Positions 10,000 to 16,611 of a DNA stretch of 23,911 nt are shown one piece after another (position 1 is the stretch's first letter; the number at the start of each line of letters is the position of its first letter). Below the pieces are notes generated by a model. It worked only from the letters and a program-made list of their open reading frames with translations, searched no databases and had not been told where the DNA came from. This stretch comes from a virus (taxonomy: Duplodnaviria > Heunggongvirae > Uroviricota > Caudoviricetes), in the IMG/VR virus record IMGVR_UViG_2526164594_000022, one strand, 5' to 3'. The translations under genes were made by a program, and so were the position numbers.

Positions 10000-10161
10000 T
10001 CTCAACTTCCTCAAACGTCCGTATTAGTCCATAAAATCTCTGATTTATAACATTTTTTATTCTTTTAAGTCCATAGTAGTCCGTAACCATCCAGTAGAAT
10101 CCGGTACTGAATGTGTATAGGATTGTGTATATGTTCCTGTTCGGTCTGGATTCCTATACAC

Positions 10162-11343
10162 ATGCCTTTAAACGATATGCAGATTCGCCGCGCTAAGCCT
10201 GAAGCTAAAGCCTATACATTTGGAGATGGGCTAGGGTTGTCATTACTTATAGAACCTAATGGAAGCAAGAGTTGGCGGTTCCGCTATCGCTATGCCGGCA
10301 AACCCAAAATGATCTCGCTTGGTGTTTACCCAACGATCACCCTTGCCGATGCTCGTTCCCGTCGTGATGAAGCTCGAAAACTTGTGGCAGAAGGAAAGAA
10401 CCCTAGTGAGGTTCGAAAAGAGCAAAAGCTAGCTATGCAAACAGAGTCAGAGAACGCCTTCGAAAAGATAGCCAGAGAGTGGCATCAACTTAAATCTGCT
10501 AAATGGTCGGCGGGATATGCATCAGACATCATGGAAGCGTTTAAGAACGACATTTTTCCTTATGTCGGAACAAGGCCTGTGGGAGAGATTAAACCGCTAG
10601 AGCTGCTGAACGTTCTGCGTAAAATTGAGAAACGTGGTGCGTTGGAGAAAATGCGCAAAGTGCGGCAGCGTTGCTCCGAAGTGTTTCGCTACGCAATTGC
10701 AACGGGTAGGGCGGAGTACAATCCTGCGGCTGATCTCTCCAGCGCTCTCGAAGTACACCAATCCAATCATTTCCCATTCCTAAAAGCTGATGAGATACCT
10801 GATTTTCTACGTGCCTTAGAGGGTTACTCCGGGAGTAAGCTTGTCCAGATAGCCACGAAATTACTGATGATTACGGGTGTGAGAACCATCGAATTACGCG
10901 CGGCATTATGGCAAGAATTTGATCTGGATAACGCTATTTGGGAAATTCCTGCTGAAAGGATGAAAATGCGTAGGCCACATCTTGTGCCCTTATCATCTCA
11001 AGCGGTAGATTTACTCAATGAACTCAAGATCATGACAGGGAACTATCGTTATGTTTTTCCAGGGCGGAACGATCCGAATAGGCCAATGAGCGAAGCGAGT
11101 ATAAATCAAGCCATTAAGCGTATTGGGTATGGAGGAAAAGTCACTGGACATGGTTTTCGTCATACCCTTTCTACAATCCTGCATGAGCAAGGTTTTGAGA
11201 GTGCTTGGATTGAAATCCAGTTGGCTCATGTAGATAAAAATTCTATTAGGGGGACTTATAACCATGCTCAATATTTTAGTGGAAGGAAGTCTATGATGGA
11301 CTGGTACAGTAATTTGATATTTGAAAGACTAAAAAGGAGTTAA
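10162..11343 (+). CDS. int: P4-type tyrosine integrase
   Basis: N-terminus MPLNDMQIRRAKPEAKAYTFGDGLGLSLLIEPNGSKSWRFRYR (P4-integrase-family arm-binding region); C-terminal catalytic residues in ..GHGFRHTLSTILHEQG..LAHVDKNSIRGTYNHAQY. ORF track starts at 10111 with an unlikely Cys-rich leader. Confidence 0.85.
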   Translation: MPLNDMQIRRAKPEAKAYTFGDGLGLSLLIEPNGSKSWRFRYRYAGKPKMISLGVYPTITLADARSRRDEARKLVAEGKNPSEVRKEQKLAMQTESENAFEKIAREWHQLKSAKWSAGYASDIMEAFKNDIFPYVGTRPVGEIKPLELLNVLRKIEKRGALEKMRKVRQRCSEVFRYAIATGRAEYNPAADLSSALEVHQSNHFPFLKADEIPDFLRALEGYSGSKLVQIATKLLMITGVRTIELRAALWQEFDLDNAIWEIPAERMKMRRPHLVPLSSQAVDLLNELKIMTGNYRYVFPGRNDPNRPMSEASINQAIKRIGYGGKVTGHGFRHTLSTILHEQGFESAWIEIQLAHVDKNSIRGTYNHAQYFSGRKSMMDWYSNLIFERLKRS

Positions 11344-11346
11344 TTT

Positions 11347-11763
11347 GTGTCTCAACCACTTTCGGAAATATTGACATGGGATGATGAACAATGGGAGGTA
11401 TTTGTCCATGATTGGCTTATTGTCTGTAAATCAGATGATTACCCGTGGAGCGAACGTTTGGGAGGAGCTGGAGATAAAGGTAGAGACGTTGTTGGATATA
11501 AATCGGATCCTAACGTAGAAGGTTATTCTTGGGATAATTATCAATGCAAACTGTACAAAAAAAGTTTAGGGTTCTCTGATGTTGTAGTTGAGTTTGGAAA
11601 ACTTATCTATTTTACTCTGAATGGTGATTATCCCATCCCTCAGAAGTACTTTTTTGTGGCACCCTATGATTTATCTACTACATTTTCTAATTTATTGAAA
11701 AATAAAAACGAGCTTAAAAAAGCAGTCCTTGATTCATGGGATTCAGCAATTTCAAAAAAATAA
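11347..11763 (+). CDS. Cargo protein, N-terminal part: Mrr-like PD-(D/E)xK restriction-endonuclease-fold domain (LmuA-like effector candidate); ORF ends in an A7 run
   Basis: GTG start preceded by SD AAGGAG. Motifs WEVFVHDWL ... GGAGDKGRDVVGY ... YQCKLY fit the E...D...(Q/E)xK catalytic arrangement of Mrr-type nucleases. Stop immediately follows an A7 homopolymer at 11754-11760. Confidence 0.55.
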   Translation: MSQPLSEILTWDDEQWEVFVHDWLIVCKSDDYPWSERLGGAGDKGRDVVGYKSDPNVEGYSWDNYQCKLYKKSLGFSDVVVEFGKLIYFTLNGDYPIPQKYFFVAPYDLSTTFSNLLKNKNELKKAVLDSWDSAISKK

Positions 11764-12353
11764 CTAAAAAGATTGATATTCCATTAGATGATGAAATAAA
11801 AAAATATATTGAGGATTTTGATTTTAGTATTTTTTACTCTCTACCCTTATCATTGATTTTAAATGATATTGCAAATACACACCTTTATTTTAAGTACTTT
11901 AACGAGCTGTATGTCGTGAGAATCCCTCCAAATGAAATTCCAACATACAATTCAAAAAAAGAGTCTGTATATGTTAATGCACTGCTTCAAGCCTATTCAG
12001 AGCATGGAAATAAAACTTATAGTTCTTTCTTAGAGCTTGATGATCCATACAGACGACACTTTAATAATAGTAGAAATGATTTTTATTTTGCATCTTCGCT
12101 TGAGGTTTTTGTCCGCGAAGTATTTAAAGATGATGTATTCAAAGCATTGAAATGTTACATTTCATCTTCAATTGAACCCGTCTTTTATGAAGACCATAAT
12201 TATGCATTTATTAGGTGTAATGCAGTCTTGAAGCAGGCTGTTCTGACACCAATTGCACATTCAGTACTATCAAAAATATGTGAAGCAAATGATAAAAAAG
12301 GAATATGCCATCATTTGGTTAATGATGGTGAAGTAATTTGGACGGTGAGATAA
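11736..12353 (+). CDS. Cargo protein, probable continuation of the preceding ORF in the +1 frame (C-terminal domain of the nuclease protein)
   Basis: Open frame passes through the same A7 run; one extra A would join ..DSWDSAISKK to ITKKIDIPLDDEIKKY.., giving a ~335-aa protein. Stop overlaps the next ATG (TAATG). Confidence 0.5.
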   Translation: MGFSNFKKITKKIDIPLDDEIKKYIEDFDFSIFYSLPLSLILNDIANTHLYFKYFNELYVVRIPPNEIPTYNSKKESVYVNALLQAYSEHGNKTYSSFLELDDPYRRHFNNSRNDFYFASSLEVFVREVFKDDVFKALKCYISSSIEPVFYEDHNYAFIRCNAVLKQAVLTPIAHSVLSKICEANDKKGICHHLVNDGEVIWTVR

Positions 12354-12811
12354 TGGTTAGAATTTATAATTCAAGTTTAGAAGTGGCATGTCGAATGGCG
12401 AAAGTGCTCGTCGCTATTTATCCTTCTTCATTAAGCCTTGAACGGCTTATTTGTTTTGATTTTATTTTAGTAAATCTTAAGGATTTTTTACCTGAAGAGA
12501 TTAGTCTTCATCCTCCAATACCCCGTAGAGATGCTCAGTTAGCCCTAAAACGAGAGATTGTTTTAGAATCATTGGCTTTGTTGCAAGGCTATGAACTAGC
12601 CTCAAAAATTTATACACATCGTGGTTTTGTATATAAAGCTTCTGAAAAAACATATGCATTTACAAATTCTCTACATAATGAATATGTTGCGCAGATGGAG
12701 CATAATATAAATTTGGTGGTTAAGTTATATAGTGATATTCCTGATGAGCAGTTGCAATCAATTATAAAAAATAAAATTGGCAAATATGATATGGAATTTA
12801 ATTATGAATGA
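12353..12811 (+). CDS. Small cargo protein (~152 aa), candidate middle component (LmuC-like by position)
   Basis: ATG at 12353 overlaps the upstream stop (TAATG), suggesting translational coupling; 3' end overlaps the next ATG (ATGAATGA). No motif recognised. Confidence 0.5.
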   Translation: MVRIYNSSLEVACRMAKVLVAIYPSSLSLERLICFDFILVNLKDFLPEEISLHPPIPRRDAQLALKREIVLESLALLQGYELASKIYTHRGFVYKASEKTYAFTNSLHNEYVAQMEHNINLVVKLYSDIPDEQLQSIIKNKIGKYDMEFNYE

Positions 12812-13436
12812 CAATTTTTTTACGTTCAGAAAAATAAAGGTAACCGGATTCAATAAATTAGATGCTATAATTGAATTTGGTTCTAAATTGACTATTTTAT
12901 ATGGTGGTTCTGACTCTGGAAAAACATACATATATTATTTGATTCGATATTTATTAGGGAGTGAAAAACTAAAAAATAAAGATATCGATCATGCTCAAGG
13001 TTATGATTTAGCCTATCTGGAATTTAATTTTCAAGGTAGGGTAATGACAATTGAGAGGTCTCTTCAGGATAGCGCCCATTACAGATTATATGATTCGAGC
13101 ATTGAAAATGTTAGTGAAGCTAATCTGTTGATGGTTTTTTCCAAAAGTGCTTCGTCTAAAAAGAGTTTTTCATCATACTTTTATGGTAGGTTGAATTTCA
13201 AAGAGGCTAAAGTAAGAACAAACTTAAGTAATACTCTTCATAAATTTAATCTTAATAATGTTTTTGAATTTTTTTGTATTGATGAATTAAGAGTGTTAAC
13301 TGAGAAGTCGTTAATTCTTTCTGATATTCCTAGCGAGGAGACAAAAAGAAAGTCTGAATTTAAATTCCTTTTAACTCAGAGAGATGATACTAACTCCTTA
13401 GCAGAAAAACCAAATAAAAAAGCAAGATATTTTTAA
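12804..13436 (+). CDS. SMC/Rad50/RecF-like ABC ATPase, N-terminal head half (Walker A); LmuB-like candidate, fragment 1
   Basis: MNDNFFTFRKIKVTGFNKLDAIIEFGSKLTILYGGSDSGKTYIYYLIRYLLG: the typical SMC_N-type start (..i.i.nF...) and P-loop GGSDSGKT. Ends at an in-frame TAA that begins an A7 run. Confidence 0.6.
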   Translation: MNDNFFTFRKIKVTGFNKLDAIIEFGSKLTILYGGSDSGKTYIYYLIRYLLGSEKLKNKDIDHAQGYDLAYLEFNFQGRVMTIERSLQDSAHYRLYDSSIENVSEANLLMVFSKSASSKKSFSSYFYGRLNFKEAKVRTNLSNTLHKFNLNNVFEFFCIDELRVLTEKSLILSDIPSEETKRKSEFKFLLTQRDDTNSLAEKPNKKARYF

Positions 13437-13466
13437 AAAAATCAAATTGCAAATATTTATGAGGAA

Positions 13467-13856
13467 TTGAAAGCGCAATTAATTTATCCTGAATATGATC
13501 AAGTCATTGTTTCAAGAGAACTTGAGAAAGTAGAGCAAGATATTGAATCATCGAAAGATATATTGAAAGGTATTGTTGATGCACTTGATGATAAGAAGCA
13601 ATTATTAAAAGAGTTAAGTGATGAATTATATTCAATCAGTGACAGGGAAAAATACTTATCATTACTCATTGAAAGATTTAGTCTTCTTAAAGACCAATAC
13701 TTTATAGATCTACAAAGAATAGATGTTGTATCACAGGCGAATTTCTATTTAAATAATTTTGCAGATATTTATTGTGAGTTCTGTAATACACCGCAAAAAA
13801 AGAAAATGAAATATCATATGATGATTGTTTTTTGTCGTGTAATGCAGAAAAATTGA
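13467..13856 (+). CDS. Coiled-coil segment of the SMC-like ATPase (fragment 2), ending in CxxC
   Basis: Same frame as the preceding ORF, separated by a single TAA. Heptad-rich sequence ..ELEKVEQDIESSKDILKGIVDALDDKKQLLKELSDELYSI.. ending ..CEFCNTPQKK at an A7 run (13795-13801). Confidence 0.45.
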   Translation: MKAQLIYPEYDQVIVSRELEKVEQDIESSKDILKGIVDALDDKKQLLKELSDELYSISDREKYLSLLIERFSLLKDQYFIDLQRIDVVSQANFYLNNFADIYCEFCNTPQKKKMKYHMMIVFCRVMQKN

Positions 13857-14056
13857 AAATCAAAAGCCAGCTGAAAGGATTAATTGAATCAATCGGATCT
13901 AATGTTCGCGAACATGAATTAATTATGTTAAGAAAAAATGATGTTAATGAAATTTATCAATCAGAAAAAAGTGATTTTAAGACGTTAGAAGATAAAAATA
14001 TAAAACAATACATTCATCTCTTGAATCACTTTATGAATATAAAGACAATCTTTTAA
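13832..14056 (+). CDS. SMC-like ATPase fragment 3 (second half of a putative zinc hook, CFLSC, plus coiled coil)
   Basis: With one extra A in the A7 run the reading becomes CEFCNTPQKKENEISYDDCFLSCNAEKLKIKSQLK.., i.e. CxxC-x16-CxxxC, reminiscent of Rad50/SMC hook motifs. Confidence 0.4.
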   Translation: MSCNAEKLKIKSQLKGLIESIGSNVREHELIMLRKNDVNEIYQSEKSDFKTLEDKNIKQYIHLLNHFMNIKTIF

Positions 14057-14622
14057 TGGATCACACAAAACATAGCATTCTATCTTCATTACAAGATAAA
14101 GAAGATGATGTTGACGAACTTAAATACTCCGCCGAGGACTTTGACTCCTTAACAGTAGCTGATTTGTATGATATAGAAATAGCGATGCAAGACTTTTTGA
14201 ATGATATAAATTTTGAAAATTCTAAAGATAACAAAGTGCGATTTGACGAAGATACATATGACTTTAATATCAATGGGAAACGCCGAGGAATGTTTGGTAA
14301 AGGTACCCGTGCAGTAATGCATGCTATATTTACCATTTGCTTTGCGGAATTTTTATCAAGAAAAGGGAATCCATTCATTGGATTTGTTGTGCTTGATAGT
14401 CCATTAGTGACGCACTTTGATAAAGATAGAGGGGGTTCTCTATCGGATGTTAATAGCGTCAGTCTCAGTGATTCATTTTATCACGCATTAATCAAAAGGG
14501 ACTATAATTTCCAGATTGTAATTCTTGAGAATAAAGGTCCGACGTTCCAAATAAAAATTAATGATGCAAATAAAATCCATAACTTAAATAAGAATGGAAG
14601 CTCTGGTTTTTATCCTGTTTAA
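14056..14622 (+). CDS. SMC-like ABC ATPase, C-terminal head half (signature-like and Walker B-like motifs), fragment 4
   Basis: ..GKRRGMFGKGTRAVMHAIFTICFAEFLSRKGNPFIGFVVLDSPLVTHFDKD..QIVILENKG: signature-like GKGTRA, hydrophobic stretch plus acidic residue (VVLDSP) in Walker B position. ATG overlaps the upstream stop (TAATG). Confidence 0.55.
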   Translation: MDHTKHSILSSLQDKEDDVDELKYSAEDFDSLTVADLYDIEIAMQDFLNDINFENSKDNKVRFDEDTYDFNINGKRRGMFGKGTRAVMHAIFTICFAEFLSRKGNPFIGFVVLDSPLVTHFDKDRGGSLSDVNSVSLSDSFYHALIKRDYNFQIVILENKGPTFQIKINDANKIHNLNKNGSSGFYPV

Positions 14623-14984
14623 TACATTAAAAATATAACTGCTAATTGGGGTGCTCGAAATTATATTTCGTTTCGAGCGCTCAGTTCATTTCTAAATAAT
14701 TTGCAAAATTATTTTGGGTACTTTCGCCTCTACACTTCCTTCGGGTGGTTCCACAATAATGGATCTCACCGGCGTTTGATATTTTATAATCTAACCCCTT
14801 AGCGCGCGCAGCCCCCCACGCCTGCTCGCTTCGCTTAACAGACTGGTTTTCATGCATTCCGCAAATCGTCTCAGAAGCCACCACACAAGGGCTTTCGCGT
14901 CAAAAATGGTGCATGAGAATCATGCGTTTTCATGCGCTATAGACATGCACTCATGCGCTCTCAGGCCAGCCAGGGAAAAGGCGT

Positions 14985-15027
14985 AAAAAATCCCAGTACT
15001 GGACCGGGATTACGTGGGCTTTTTTTG
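14985..15027 (-). terminator. Putative intrinsic terminator downstream of the delta/ogr-like gene
   Basis: Minus-strand hairpin AATCCC-N11-GGGATT followed by TTTTTT. Stem is short, so tentative. Confidence 0.35.
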
Positions 15028-15031
15028 CTAA

Positions 15032-15304
15032 TCAGACAGGAATTTGCTGACGGCTTGACAGCTTTGACGCGGAGCCATAGCGATTGAGAGTTTGCTGTTG
15101 TTTTTCCGGCATTTGTGCTTTCTCTGATTCCTGTTCATTGCGCCGGGGCTTCATGATTATCGTATCCACACTTTCCAGTGCGGTAAATGTGTAGGAACAT
15201 TCAAGATTCTGGCACTGATACCATGAGCGTTTAACCGATGGTGCTTCATAGGCGGAGGTTCTGGCGTGTGCCGTCGTACCGCATTCGGGACATTTAAGTG
15301 CCAT
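15032..15304 (-). CDS. Ogr/Delta-family zinc-finger late-gene activator
   Basis: MALKCPECGTTAHARTSAYEAPSVKRSWYQCQNLECSYTFTALESV..: C-x2-C...C-x4-C pattern and AHARTS motif as in P2 Ogr / P4 Delta. Confidence 0.85.
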   Translation of the reverse strand: MALKCPECGTTAHARTSAYEAPSVKRSWYQCQNLECSYTFTALESVDTIIMKPRRNEQESEKAQMPEKQQQTLNRYGSASKLSSRQQIPV

Positions 15305-15309
15305 TAATA

Positions 15310-15861
15310 TTACTCCTGCATGCCGTTAATGTAATCCAGACGTTGCTGAAAGCGCAGTTGTTGTGCAGGGGTGTAAGAGCTCTGGCAATCACGAACCATC
15401 ATGGGGTCAGGCATCACACCGGATTCATCCAGAATCATACGATAATCCCCGGCAATTTCAGGCGGTGTTATTGCCAGCTGGCGAACCAGAGCATTGCGTA
15501 ATATACGGGACGCAACGTCAACCCCTCCGCGCCCCTTCAGGAACGGAGCCAGTGCAGATGTCAGGGCTGCTCCATTCGCCTGCATAAAATTGCTGAGAGC
15601 GTCTTCTGTGCAGGCCTCCATCAGTTGATGCTGCGAGTAAATGCATTCGCGCGCAGCACAGTTAATTTGCCATTTCAGCACATCCAGATGTTCCCGCTGT
15701 AATTCGAGCTGTCGAGCATAATCTGCTGGTTTTTCCATGGCAGTGAGGAGTGATTCTATCTGTTGTTCAACGGCTTTTCGGCTCTCACTATGTCCAGCCC
15801 ACAGAATACGGGCATTTCTAAAACTGATAAGCGCTTGGTCTGGAGTGACTCGGGCCATCAT
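15310..15861 (-). CDS. psu: Psu-like protein (polarity suppression / capsid decoration)
   Basis: 183-aa ORF between the sid-like and delta-like genes; partial resemblance to P4 Psu (..LKWQINCAARECI.., ..GAALTSALAPFL.., ..YTPAQQ..) by recall. Confidence 0.65.
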   Translation of the reverse strand: MMARVTPDQALISFRNARILWAGHSESRKAVEQQIESLLTAMEKPADYARQLELQREHLDVLKWQINCAARECIYSQHQLMEACTEDALSNFMQANGAALTSALAPFLKGRGGVDVASRILRNALVRQLAITPPEIAGDYRMILDESGVMPDPMMVRDCQSSYTPAQQLRFQQRLDYINGMQE

Positions 15862-15930
15862 ACTGCTTTCTCCTTCTCAGCACGTTCCTGACGAACCTTC
15901 ATTTTATGCATAGCTGCTGGAGAGAGTTTA

Positions 15931-16611
15931 TTACTGAAATCCAGACGGGCCGCATAATCCGGGGGCAACTCCCGCCAGTTTAAACACGGGGTCCTGTTCG
16001 GGCATCGCATCGTTAGTCAGAGCCGGTCTGGTGATATGTTTATGAATAAAATCTTTCAGCAGTGTGTCCGGGTCATTAACTGAATGCACCACACCGACAA
16101 CTGCGCTGGCTTCCCTGCCCATTGTTGATTTGAGCAGGCTTAGTGTCTGGATTAGTGCTTTTCCATGCGACTGCATAAAATCTTCCCAGATTTGTTTTGC
16201 GCGAATACCCACAAGGGTGTCGTGCGCGTGGATATACTTTCCGGCTAATTCCGCAGCCTCCTGCGGCAAAAGTGCATTTTCGCTTTCCTGAGCCGCCAGC
16301 AGCTCATCAAAATCCTCAAGCGTTTCTCGTCCCAGCGCAATTTCCGTGCGCAGTTTTTTCATTTCCTTTGAGACTACGCCCTGACTTTCACGAAATAGCG
16401 TGCGCCACTCCTCATTCAGGGCGTTCGTCGTGGCTTCCATTTCAGCGCGGCGCTGGCGGATTGTCGCAATATTATCCGCTGCCGCTTTTTGCTGACGACG
16501 TGCTTCAAGCCATGCAGATTTGGTGGCATTCACTTTCTCAAGCGCCTGTTGCGTCGAAACAGGGATAGAAATTTCAACGATCGGGTTATTGTTCTGTTCT
16601 GGGATTGTCAT
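15931..16611 (-). CDS. sid: Sid-like external scaffold (capsid size determination) protein
   Basis: 226-aa ORF first in the minus-strand late cluster; shares ..EEWRTLFRESQGVVSKEMKK.. with P4 Sid (..DDWRTAFRAAGGVLSDELKQ..) by recall. Confidence 0.6.
   Translation of the reverse strand: MTIPEQNNNPIVEISIPVSTQQALEKVNATKSAWLEARRQQKAAADNIATIRQRRAEMEATTNALNEEWRTLFRESQGVVSKEMKKLRTEIALGRETLEDFDELLAAQESENALLPQEAAELAGKYIHAHDTLVGIRAKQIWEDFMQSHGKALIQTLSLLKSTMGREASAVVGVVHSVNDPDTLLKDFIHKHITRPALTNDAMPEQDPVFKLAGVAPGLCGPSGFQ

What the first reader, a model, noticed from the sequence alone, without database searches (positions are those of the whole stretch)
13434..14058. SMC-like ATPase split into four ORFs: in-frame TAA, A7 frame break and TAATG junction
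Seen in sequence: the Walker-A head fragment (to 13436) and the coiled-coil fragment (from 13437) are in the same frame, separated by a single TAA at the start of TTTTAAAAAAA. The coiled-coil fragment and the next piece are separated by a -1 shift at the A7 run 13795-13801; an extra A yields CEFCNTPQKKENEISYDDCFLSC. The last two pieces meet at TAATG (14054-14058). Domain order across the fragments is that of one SMC-family protein, so the ancestral gene was probably a single ~600-codon ORF. Inference: pseudogenisation of the ATPase, or a combination of sequencing error and a nonsense mutation. Natively split ATPase halves are a less likely alternative.
Basis: partly seen in the sequence, partly recalled or inferred. 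Interest (0 to 1): 0.6.

Follow-up and report, generated by a model that had tools for sequence, protein, structure and literature searches.

The report
Broken Lamassu defence ATPase gene (lmuB)
The four small reading frames are the wreck of one 606-codon gene, lmuB, the SMC-like ATPase of a Lamassu anti-phage system on a P4-like satellite in E. coli O157:H7; one stop mutation and two one-base deletions in A-runs broke it, so it is an ordinary pseudogene, although the same broken locus has been published as a working "Lamassu variant".

Summary
The fragments at 12804-14622 are one ancestral gene. Intact relatives are single polypeptides of 594-621 aa (Proteus mirabilis 88% identical, Pantoea alhagi 75%) and read through all three junctions. 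PADLOC, a PDB profile search and a fold search identify the protein as LmuB of a short, type II Lamassu system (lmuA-lmuC-lmuB).

lmuB carries three lesions in the window:
- TTA to TAA at 13435 (codon 211).
- A8 to A7 at 13795-13801 (codons 331-333).
- A6 to A5 at 13994-13998 (codons 398-399).

The third break is therefore not at TAATG. That motif is the in-frame Leu418-Met419 (TTA ATG) read out of frame. A fourth lesion (A8 to A7 at 11754-11760) splits the nuclease effector gene lmuA.

Sequencing error is excluded. Among 309 complete E. coli records, the lmuA lesion is in 309, A5 in 306, TAA in 295 and A7 in 66. Other lineages carry their own extra indels and a second nonsense codon. Within-lineage substitutions run 11 non-synonymous to 2 synonymous, against dN/dS 0.12 between genera.

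No natively split homologue was found. The O55:H7 allele of this locus was published as the functional "Lamassu-var" (PMC11754643). Verdict: a decaying defence operon of a known kind, low interest.

The parts
10111..11343 (+). Tyrosine integrase of the P4-like satellite (context)
   Evidence: ORF list; RefSeq annotation of the identical locus.
11347..11763 (+). lmuA fragment 1: N-terminal Mrr-like PD-(D/E)xK nuclease domain, 138 aa, GTG start with a GGAG Shine-Dalgarno
   Evidence: Aligns with residues 1-135 of the intact 335-aa LmuA. PADLOC LmuA 2e-87 on the intact orthologue. 2 of 26 homologues reach Pfam Mrr_cat.
11754..11760 (+). A7 run carrying the -1 frameshift in lmuA (codon ~136), which separates the nuclease domain from the CTD6 domain
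   Evidence: One-base gap relative to the Proteus and Pantoea-type genes. Inserting one A restores a 335-aa protein 92.6% identical to Proteus LmuA. Present in 309 of 309 E. coli records.
11736..12353 (+). lmuA fragment 2: linker plus CTD6 (oligomerisation/sequestration domain), 205 aa
   Evidence: Pfam CTD6 7.7e-30.
12353..12811 (+). lmuC (ABC-3C middle component 2), apparently intact, 152 aa; its start overlaps the lmuA stop as TAATG
   Evidence: Pfam MC2 6e-30. PADLOC LmuC 3.3e-35 on the orthologue. Junction sequence. Same length as in intact loci.
12804..13436 (+). lmuB fragment 1: head N-lobe with Walker A GGSDSGKT (12903-12926), codons 1-210, then TAA
   Evidence: Pfam AAA_23/SMC_N; alignment A1; structure model.
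13434..13436 (+). Nonsense codon TAA (codon 211); the ancestral codon was TTA (Leu), changed by T to A at 13435
   Evidence: TTA in LSU61, three O55:H7 strains and Proteus, CTG (also Leu) in Pantoea-type. The TAA allele is in 295 of 309 records.
13437..13856 (+). lmuB fragment 2: ascending coiled coil and CxxC zinc hook (CEFC, 13773-13784). It is homologous to LmuB up to the A-run; the tail after 13801 is out of frame
13795..13801 (+). A7 run: -1 deletion from the ancestral A8 (codons 331-333, in the apex loop just after the zinc hook). It contains A AAA AAG in phase (13796-13802)
   Evidence: A8 in FORC_044, LSU61, O55:H7 strains and Proteus. A7 in 66 of 309 records.
13802..14056 (+). lmuB fragment 3: descending coiled coil in frame 2. 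It is homologous up to 13993; after that comes a 19-residue out-of-frame tail ending in TAA at 14054-14056
13994..13998 (+). A5 run: -1 deletion from the ancestral A6 (codons 398-399, mid descending coiled coil). This is the true third break
   Evidence: One-base gap relative to Proteus (A6) and Pantoea-type genes. Repair gives 606 codons. Present in 306 of 309 records.
13996..14622 (+). lmuB fragment 4: frame 1 is open from 13996. The annotated ORF starts at ATG 14056, which is the conserved internal Met419. It encodes the rest of the descending coil and the head C-lobe with Walker B FVVLDS (14383-14400)
   Evidence: Pfam DUF3732. ORF4 aligns to the C-terminal ~190 residues of ~600-aa proteins.
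14054..14058 (+). TAATG: the in-frame codons TTA ATG (Leu418-Met419) read out of frame. It is not the lesion
   Evidence: The same CTTTTAATGGAT occurs in the intact Pantoea-type lmuB.
14649..14682 (+). Terminator-like hairpin (13-bp stem) after lmuB; probable end of the operon
15032..16611 (-). ogr/Delta, psu and sid-like genes of the satellite, which bound the defence hotspot (context)
   Evidence: The same layout flanks the intact Lamassu in the Pantoea-type loci.

Best explanation
The region is a decaying short (type II) Lamassu anti-phage operon, lmuA-lmuC-lmuB. It sits in the cargo hotspot (between integrase and ogr/psu) of a P4-like satellite in the E. coli O55:H7/O157:H7 lineage.

What an intact system does (from the literature): two SMC/Rad50-like LmuB protomers plus LmuC hold the C-terminal domain of the nuclease LmuA. 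Sensing DNA ends releases LmuA, which forms a tetramer and cuts DNA.

What happened here: the system was inactivated before O55:H7 and O157:H7 diverged, by two one-base deletions in A-runs. One is in lmuA (A8 to A7 at 11754-11760) and cuts the nuclease domain off its oligomerisation domain. The other is in lmuB (A6 to A5 at 13994-13998). The gene then drifted. O157:H7 gained TTA to TAA at 13435, and a sub-lineage that includes this window lost another A (A8 to A7 at 13795-13801). Other branches gained lesions of their own.

Shown: the identity of the gene, the position and nature of each lesion, their population frequencies, and relaxed selection. Inferred: the order of events, and that the fragments have no function. 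The cause is replication slippage in AT-rich foreign DNA (28-35% GC; 6.4 homopolymers of 6 nt or more per kb, against 2.1 per kb elsewhere in the window) once selection was lost.
For: Single ancestral gene:
- Intact relatives are single proteins of 594-621 aa, the closest 88% and 75% identical. They align across all three junctions.
- DNA alignment shows TTA/TAA at 13435 and one-base gaps at 13795-13801, 13994-13998 and ~11754.
- Repair gives 606 codons (87.8% identical to Proteus LmuB) and a 335-aa LmuA (92.6% identical).

Family:
- PADLOC on the intact orthologues: LmuA 2e-87, LmuC 3.3e-35, LmuB 3.4e-117.
- Pfam CTD6 and MC2 on the window's own ORFs.
- A profile search hits the PDB chain 9hqu_A at 1.3e-13.
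- The AlphaFold model (pLDDT 85.5) has solved Lamassu LmuACB structures as its top Foldseek hits (9uxh, 9hqu, 9hqx, 9nyg; E 1e-15 to 1e-12).
- Walker A, the short-Lamassu Walker B and the CxxC match the motifs defined in PMC12663957.

Not an artefact: allele counts in 309 records are lmuA lesion 309, A5 306, TAA 295, A7 66.

Decay:
- Independent extra lesions occur in CB9615 (T7 to T8, A6 to A5, CAA to TAA), TB182A (A6 to A5), DEC5B and LSU61 (+A giving an immediate TGA).
- Within-lineage lmuB substitutions are 11 non-synonymous (2 of them nonsense) to 2 synonymous, where the site ratio is 4.2 to 1. Between genera dN/dS is 0.117, with equal branch counts.

Context: intact loci have the same int-lmuA-lmuC-lmuB-ogr-psu layout.
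Against: - PMC11754643 cloned the O55:H7 TB182A allele of this locus and reported smaller plaques for T-even phages. That allele has lmuA split and lmuB in two pieces, so some residual activity of the fragments cannot be excluded.
- lmuC and ORF4 carried no disabling lesion in the strains examined. Those strains were chosen for differences inside lmuB, so the sample is biased.
- The TAATG overlap at 14054-14058 could allow termination-reinitiation and so produce the C-terminal piece.
- RefSeq does not mark the lmuB fragments as pseudogenes.
- The order of events is inferred from allele frequencies and a handful of strains, not from a phylogeny.
Confidence: 0.92

Rival explanations
1. A functional multi-piece Lamassu. 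The fragments are translated separately, with ORF4 made by termination-reinitiation at TAATG, and assemble non-covalently through the antiparallel coiled coil and the two head lobes. This would give a weak but real defence.
For: A small-plaque phenotype was reported for the O55:H7 allele, which has two-piece LmuB and two-piece LmuA (PMC11754643). From established knowledge, not tested here: Rad50 head domains can be reconstituted from separate N- and C-terminal polypeptides. lmuC is intact. TAATG is also the native lmuA/lmuC coupling motif.
Against: - The cloned segment starts exactly at the lmuA GTG, so it has no native promoter or ribosome-binding site. The vector was described as promoterless, and the insert also carries the ogr/Delta activator gene. 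The phenotype was seen only in plaque size at the highest dilutions.
- Lesions keep accumulating, and substitutions look neutral.
- The window allele has four lmuB pieces. The middle two have only a TTG candidate start (ORF2's preceded by an AGGA one base upstream, too close to act as a Shine-Dalgarno; none before ORF3's).
- LmuA needs its nuclease domain and its oligomerisation domain in one chain for activation by tetramerisation (abstract of 10.1101/2025.03.14.643221).
Confidence: 0.05
2. Programmed recoding or phase variation. A -1 ribosomal frameshift, or transcriptional slippage, at the A7 run (A AAA AAG in phase), together with stop-codon readthrough, restores full-length LmuB. Alternatively, A7/A8 switching acts as an on/off switch.
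For: The heptamer A AAA AAG (13796-13802) is in the correct phase, and a -1 slip would recreate the ancestral ...PQKKENE.... The tract is polymorphic in the population (A7 in 66 records, not A7 in 243).
Against: - Three independent events would be needed in one translation: TAA readthrough, a -1 shift at A7 and a -1 shift at A5. lmuA would need a fourth.
- The RNA downstream has no stimulatory structure (z = +0.75), and no Shine-Dalgarno-like element lies upstream.
- Intact relatives have the in-frame A8 (Proteus) or a different in-frame sequence of the same length (Pantoea-type), so the shift is not conserved.
- A8 strains still carry TAA and A5, so switching cannot turn the gene on.
Confidence: 0.02
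3. A sequencing or assembly artefact: homopolymer miscalls in an otherwise intact gene.
For: Three of the four lesions are homopolymer length changes. Some single-strain indels could be errors: L001 at 11798, L004 at 13269 and L005 at 13343. The ATCC 43888 assembly is riddled with frameshifts.
Against: The window's lesions are shared by 66, 295, 306 and 309 of 309 independently sequenced complete genomes. One of them is a base substitution, not a length change.
Confidence: 0.01

Closest known systems
Short, type II Lamassu (LmuA-LmuC-LmuB; e.g. Salmonella enterica LmuACB, PDB 9hqu/9hqx; Vibrio cholerae DdmABC, also called Lamassu Vc-Cap4)
   Same: Three-gene order. An LmuB of ~600 aa with Walker A Gx4GK[S/T] (lysine at position 40), Walker B hhhhDS and one CxxC hook. 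An MC2-type LmuC. An LmuA made of an N-terminal nuclease plus a C-terminal domain. PADLOC, the PDB profile search and Foldseek all place it here.
   Different: Here lmuB carries three inactivating lesions and lmuA one. The effector looks Mrr-like rather than Cap4, which is weakly supported (2 of 26 homologues reach Pfam Mrr_cat). Identity to the solved LmuB chains is only 12-14% in the structural alignments.
'Lamassu-var', cluster 1 of the 'P4-like hotspots' in Domainator (PMC11754643)
   Same: It is the same locus. The cloned CP038295:4116517-4120474 is the O55:H7 TB182A allele of window ~11347-15304.
   Different: The paper treats it as an abundant functional variant with '3 to 9 CDSs' and never mentions frameshifts or pseudogenes. 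Comparison with the intact Proteus and Pantoea genes shows the extra CDSs are fragments. The window allele has two more lmuB lesions (TAA, A7) than TB182A, and lacks TB182A's deletion at 13965.
ABC-three-component (ABC-3C) systems (Pfam CTD6, PF20282; MC2, PF20288)
   Same: The effector C-terminal domain CTD6 and middle component MC2 score 7.7e-30 and 6e-30. An ABC ATPase is encoded next to them.
   Different: ABC-3C is the earlier computational name for the same assemblage. There is no real difference apart from the decay.
Rad50/SbcC zinc-hook SMC-like ATPases
   Same: A split ABC head joined by an antiparallel coiled coil with a CxxC apex. These are the next-best structural and profile hits.
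   Different: The coiled coil is much shorter (~100 residues per arm). The partners are LmuC and LmuA rather than Mre11/SbcD.

Membership tests
Lamassu (short, type II) | LmuB: an SMC/Rad50-like ABC ATPase of about 600 aa | tested here: met
   The repaired reading is 606 codons. PADLOC LmuB 3.4e-117 over 6-605 of the 88%-identical orthologue. Top Foldseek hits are solved LmuB chains.
Lamassu (short, type II) | Walker A Gx4GK[S/T] | tested here: met
   GGSDSGKT, codons 34-41 (12903-12926). G34, S36, D37, G39 and K40 are invariant in 17 homologues. Motif definition from PMC12663957.
Lamassu (short, type II) | Short-type Walker B hhhhD[Q/S/T/E] | tested here: met
   FVVLDS, codons 528-533 (14383-14400, in ORF4). 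D532, S533 and P534 are invariant.
Lamassu (short, type II) | CxxC zinc hook at the coiled-coil apex (zero, one or two copies in short LmuB) | tested here: met
   CEFC, codons 324-327 (13773-13784). C324 and C327 are invariant. The motif lies in the apex loop 319-338 of the model.
Lamassu (short, type II) | An adjacent LmuC | tested here: met
   12353-12811. Pfam MC2 6e-30. PADLOC LmuC 3.3e-35 on the orthologue.
Lamassu (short, type II) | LmuA: effector domain and C-terminal domain in one polypeptide | tested here: not met
   Homologous (PADLOC LmuA 2e-87 on the orthologue), but split at codon ~136 by a -1 frameshift into 138 + 205 aa.
Lamassu (short, type II) | An uninterrupted lmuB open reading frame (needed for a working member) | tested here: not met
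   TAA at codon 211 and -1 deletions at codons 331-333 and 398-399.
Lamassu (short, type II) | Protects against phage or plasmids | not testable with these tools
   The only data are a weak small-plaque phenotype published for the O55:H7 allele, from a promoterless construct.
Natively split SMC-like ATPase | Homologues encoded as separate polypeptides with the same boundaries and no frame discontinuity | tested here: not met
   - The 26 closest full-length hits are 594-612 aa.
- About 86 of the best 150 relatives of ORF4 are 590-643 aa.
- Short hits are mostly on contigs of 1-4 kb or are labelled partial.
- The Xylanimonas 420 + 188 aa pair is a frameshift at residue ~408.
Programmed -1 frameshift (dnaX type) | A slippery heptamer in phase, plus stimulators, plus conservation of the shift in relatives | tested here: not met
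   The heptamer A AAA AAG is in phase. However, the downstream RNA gives z = +0.75, and relatives have an in-frame sequence of the ancestral length (A8 in Proteus).

The most novel reading that the evidence does not exclude
LmuB may tolerate a break in its descending coiled coil. The ancestral O55:H7-type allele would make an N-piece (residues 1 to ~398) and a C-piece (419-606, by termination-reinitiation at the accidental TAATG). These would reassemble with LmuC and keep weak anti-T-even activity, as PMC11754643 reported.

Two observations leave this open. Xylanimonas has an independent frameshift at the equivalent residue ~408. There is also a small excess of ~190-200-aa C-terminal fragments in other taxa. 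Both would then point to a recurrent, tolerated or even selected way of attenuating a toxic defence system, rather than to plain decay.
Probability: 0.06. Interest if true: 0.55.

Novelty: already known. Interest (0 to 1): 0.22.

Why it matters
The value is mainly as a correction.

1. RefSeq annotates the lmuB pieces as separate proteins ('AAA family ATPase' WP_000999326.1; 'hypothetical protein' WP_000647286.1 or WP_000647284.1, and WP_000350115.1) in about 300 O157:H7 genomes. They should be one pseudogene.
2. The most frequent "P4-like hotspot" cargo reported for E. coli, 'Lamassu-var', is a frameshifted Lamassu. Its count reflects the heavy sampling of one clone. Its weak phenotype came from a promoterless clone with four lesions, so it should not be taken as evidence for a new functional variant.
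3. It is a clear case of a defence system pseudogenised inside a satellite hotspot. A 2026 survey (PMC13586616) found such cases rare, below 1% of P4 pseudogenes.
4. The lesions (all records, then TAA, then A7, with the G5 run seen in fewer still; nesting was not tested) may be convenient lineage markers for O55/O157.

Tried and rejected
- An 81-nt query centred on TAA found nothing, because the low-complexity filter masked it. An offset 97-nt query solved this.
- Single-sequence searches of LmuB and LmuA against the PDB gave no hits. A 17-sequence profile was needed. NCBIfam has no model for any of the three proteins.
- I suspected recurrent inactivation of lmuA in Proteus and Pantoea, because the gene calls were 145 and 201 aa. 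The DNA is identical or nearly identical to loci with a 335-aa call, and the gene starts with GTG, so this was a gene-calling artefact.
- I considered that the +A insertions in LSU61 and DEC5B compensate for the downstream A5 deletion. Both create an immediate TGA, so they are further lesions (read from the sequence).
- My first repair of the A5 site was one base off and produced a stop. It was corrected (the run is 13994-13998). The dN/dS figures are affected in one or two codons only.
- Promoter-like sites are no more frequent than in shuffled sequence (20 against 19.9). The window contains no tRNA.
- I did not test whether A7/A8 is homoplastic across O157 clades. That needs a genome phylogeny.
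Full report
**1. The observation**

The window carries four consecutive ORFs on the + strand:
- 12777/12804-13436
- 13467-13856
- 13832-14056
- 14056-14622

Their frames are 0, 0, 2 and 1. The first ends in TAA at 13434-13436, inside TTTTTAAAAAAA, and the second continues in the same frame. The A7 run is at 13795-13801 and TAATG is at 14054-14058.

**2. What the gene is**

Pfam finds AAA_23/SMC_N in the first ORF and DUF3732 in the last. The two genes upstream hit ABC-3C CTD6 (7.7e-30) and MC2 (6e-30).

A search with the repaired, concatenated protein found single-polypeptide relatives of 594-621 aa. The closest are Proteus mirabilis (606 aa, 88% identical) and Pantoea alhagi (606 aa, 75%), followed by many at about 45%.

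PADLOC models score the intact Proteus proteins as LmuA (2e-87), LmuC (3.3e-35) and LmuB (3.4e-117, nearly end to end). A 17-sequence profile hits the PDB chain 9hqu_A at 1.3e-13, then Rad50 and SMC heads.

An AlphaFold model (pLDDT 85.5) has this layout:
- head N-lobe, residues 1 to ~200
- ascending helix, 233-318
- apex loop, 319-338
- descending helix, 339-439
- head C-lobe, ~479-606

Its best Foldseek matches are solved Lamassu LmuACB complexes (9uxh, 9hqu, 9hqx, 9nyg), ahead of SMC and Rad50.

The motifs that PMC12663957 uses to define short Lamassu LmuB are all present:
- Walker A GGSDSGKT, with the lysine at position 40
- Walker B FVVLDS
- one CxxC (CEFC, 324-327)

So the "SMC-like ATPase" is LmuB of a short, type II Lamassu system.

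**3. Where the breaks are**

I aligned the DNA with the intact Proteus and Pantoea-type genes and with other E. coli alleles. This gives three lesions in lmuB:
- T to A at 13435, turning TTA (Leu211) into TAA.
- A8 to A7 at 13795-13801 (codons 331-333, just after the zinc hook).
- A6 to A5 at 13994-13998 (codons 398-399, mid descending coiled coil).

Repairing all three gives exactly 606 codons.

The third break is therefore not at TAATG. ORF4's frame is open from 13996, and its peptide KYKTIHSSLESLYEYKDNLLMDHTK aligns with the intact proteins. The ATG at 14056 is the conserved internal Met419. The intact Pantoea-type genes contain the same CTTTTAATGGAT, read in frame.

A fourth lesion, A8 to A7 at 11754-11760, splits lmuA at codon ~136 into a nuclease fragment and a CTD6 fragment. 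Repair gives a 335-aa protein 92.6% identical to Proteus LmuA. lmuC is intact.

**4. Not an artefact, and still decaying**

A copy at least 99% identical is present in 309 of 5426 complete E. coli genomes, essentially all O157:H7 or O55:H7. Short allele-specific queries gave these counts:

| Lesion | Records with it (of 309) |
|---|---|
| lmuA frameshift | 309 |
| A5 | 306 |
| TAA | 295 |
| A7 | 66 |

The 14 records without the TAA allele include the O55:H7 strains and LSU61.

RefSeq calls a 196-aa fusion of ORF2 and ORF3 in A8 strains.

Other branches carry their own lesions:
- CB9615: T7 to T8 at 13269, A6 to A5 at 13965, and a second nonsense codon at 13443.
- TB182A: A6 to A5 at 13965.
- DEC5B and LSU61: +A insertions that create an immediate TGA.

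Substitutions within the lineage are 11 non-synonymous (2 of them nonsense) to 2 synonymous, where the site ratio is 4.2 to 1. Between E. coli and Proteus, dN/dS is 0.117, with equal counts on both branches. Inactivation is therefore recent relative to that divergence, and evolution since then looks neutral.

The cargo is 28-35% GC. It has three times the homopolymer density of the rest of the window, which explains the type of lesion.

**5. Rivals**

*Native split.* ORF4 was searched against 1.84 billion representative proteins. Most relatives are 590-643 aa, with ORF4 matching their C-terminus. Shorter hits are mostly on contigs of 1-4 kb, or are labelled partial, or cluster with a full-length protein. 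Xylanimonas allomyrinae has lmuA, lmuC, a 420-aa ORF and a 188-aa ORF. However, a 616-aa homologue aligns continuously across a frame switch at a C4/G4 run at residue ~408, so that gene is also frameshifted. A small excess of ~190-200-aa fragments remains unexplained.

*Recoding.* A AAA AAG is in phase at the A7 run, and a -1 slip would restore the ancestral protein. But there is no stimulatory structure, relatives are in frame, and the TAA and A5 lesions remain.

*Artefact.* Excluded by the population data.

**6. Literature**

Intact Lamassu sequesters the LmuA C-terminal domain in an LmuB2-LmuC complex. It releases LmuA on sensing DNA ends, and LmuA then forms an active nuclease tetramer (PMC12663957; 10.1101/2025.03.14.643221). 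Splitting LmuA between its nuclease and C-terminal domains should abolish this.

PMC11754643 reported the most frequent "P4-like hotspot" cluster in E. coli (259 of 910 regions, "3 to 9 CDSs") as a new "Lamassu-var". The authors cloned CP038295:4116517-4120474 and saw smaller plaques with T-even phages. That segment is the O55:H7 TB182A allele of this very locus. It has lmuA split and lmuB in two pieces (394 + 188 aa). It begins exactly at the lmuA GTG and includes the ogr/Delta gene. The paper does not mention frameshifts or pseudogenes.

PMC13586616 reports that defence pseudogenes are rare in P4 hotspots. This locus is one of them.

**7. Verdict**

This is a pseudogenised Lamassu operon of a known kind. 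The biological novelty is low. The useful outcome is the correction to the annotation and to the published "Lamassu-var".

Noticed in passing
window 11347-12353 (lesion at 11754-11760): The Lamassu effector gene lmuA is also frameshifted (A8 to A7, codon ~136). This separates an Mrr-like nuclease domain (138 aa) from the CTD6 domain (205 aa). The lesion is fixed in 309 of 309 E. coli records.
   Followed up: yes
window 15961-15965 (sid-like gene 15931-16611, - strand): The window has a G5 run where most strains have G4. G5 shortens the 'septation initiation' (Sid-like) protein from 250 to 226 aa. G5 is in 20 of 312 records, so it is a real sub-lineage marker rather than an error.
   Followed up: partly
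window ~11347-15304 = NZ_CP038295.1:4116517-4120474 (L014): The published, experimentally tested 'Lamassu-var' (PMC11754643) is the O55:H7 allele of this locus. The cloned insert starts at the first base of the lmuA GTG (no native promoter or ribosome-binding site) and includes the ogr/Delta gene. The paper does not note the fragmentation.
   Followed up: yes
L015:3694-5567 (Xylanimonas allomyrinae CP035495): An independent frameshift in lmuB at residue ~408, at a C4/G4 run near nt 4908-4917, gives 420 + 188 aa ORFs. This is almost the same split as in E. coli. Across taxa there is also a small excess of ~190-200-aa LmuB C-terminal fragments. Whether the descending coiled coil is a recurrent break point is unresolved.
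   Followed up: partly
window 12351-12355 and 12804-12811: The native gene junctions of the operon are overlaps: TAATG between lmuA and lmuC, and an 8-nt overlap between lmuC and lmuB. The accidental TAATG at 14054-14058 therefore mimics a genuine coupling signal.
   Followed up: partly
window 13796-13802: The A7 allele creates A AAA AAG (the dnaX-type -1 slippery heptamer) in the correct phase. A -1 slip would restore the ancestral reading. No stimulatory RNA structure lies downstream (z = +0.75).
   Followed up: partly
L013 (E. coli ATCC 43888, NZ_CP041623.1:843-6122): In this assembly nearly every gene of the island is marked frameshifted, including psu, sid and ogr. That pattern points to homopolymer errors in the assembly rather than to biology. 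Single-strain indels in other records (L001 at 11798, L004 at 13269, L005 at 13343) may be of the same kind.
   Followed up: no
window 1-23911; 11001-14000: ARAGORN finds no tRNA gene in the window, although in the Pantoea-type loci the same satellite sits next to proBA. The Lamassu cargo is 28-35% GC against 45-55% for the satellite core genes.
   Followed up: no
summary (E. coli genomes): One of the 311 matching places lies on a record labelled as a plasmid, and one genome holds two copies. Neither was examined.
   Followed up: no
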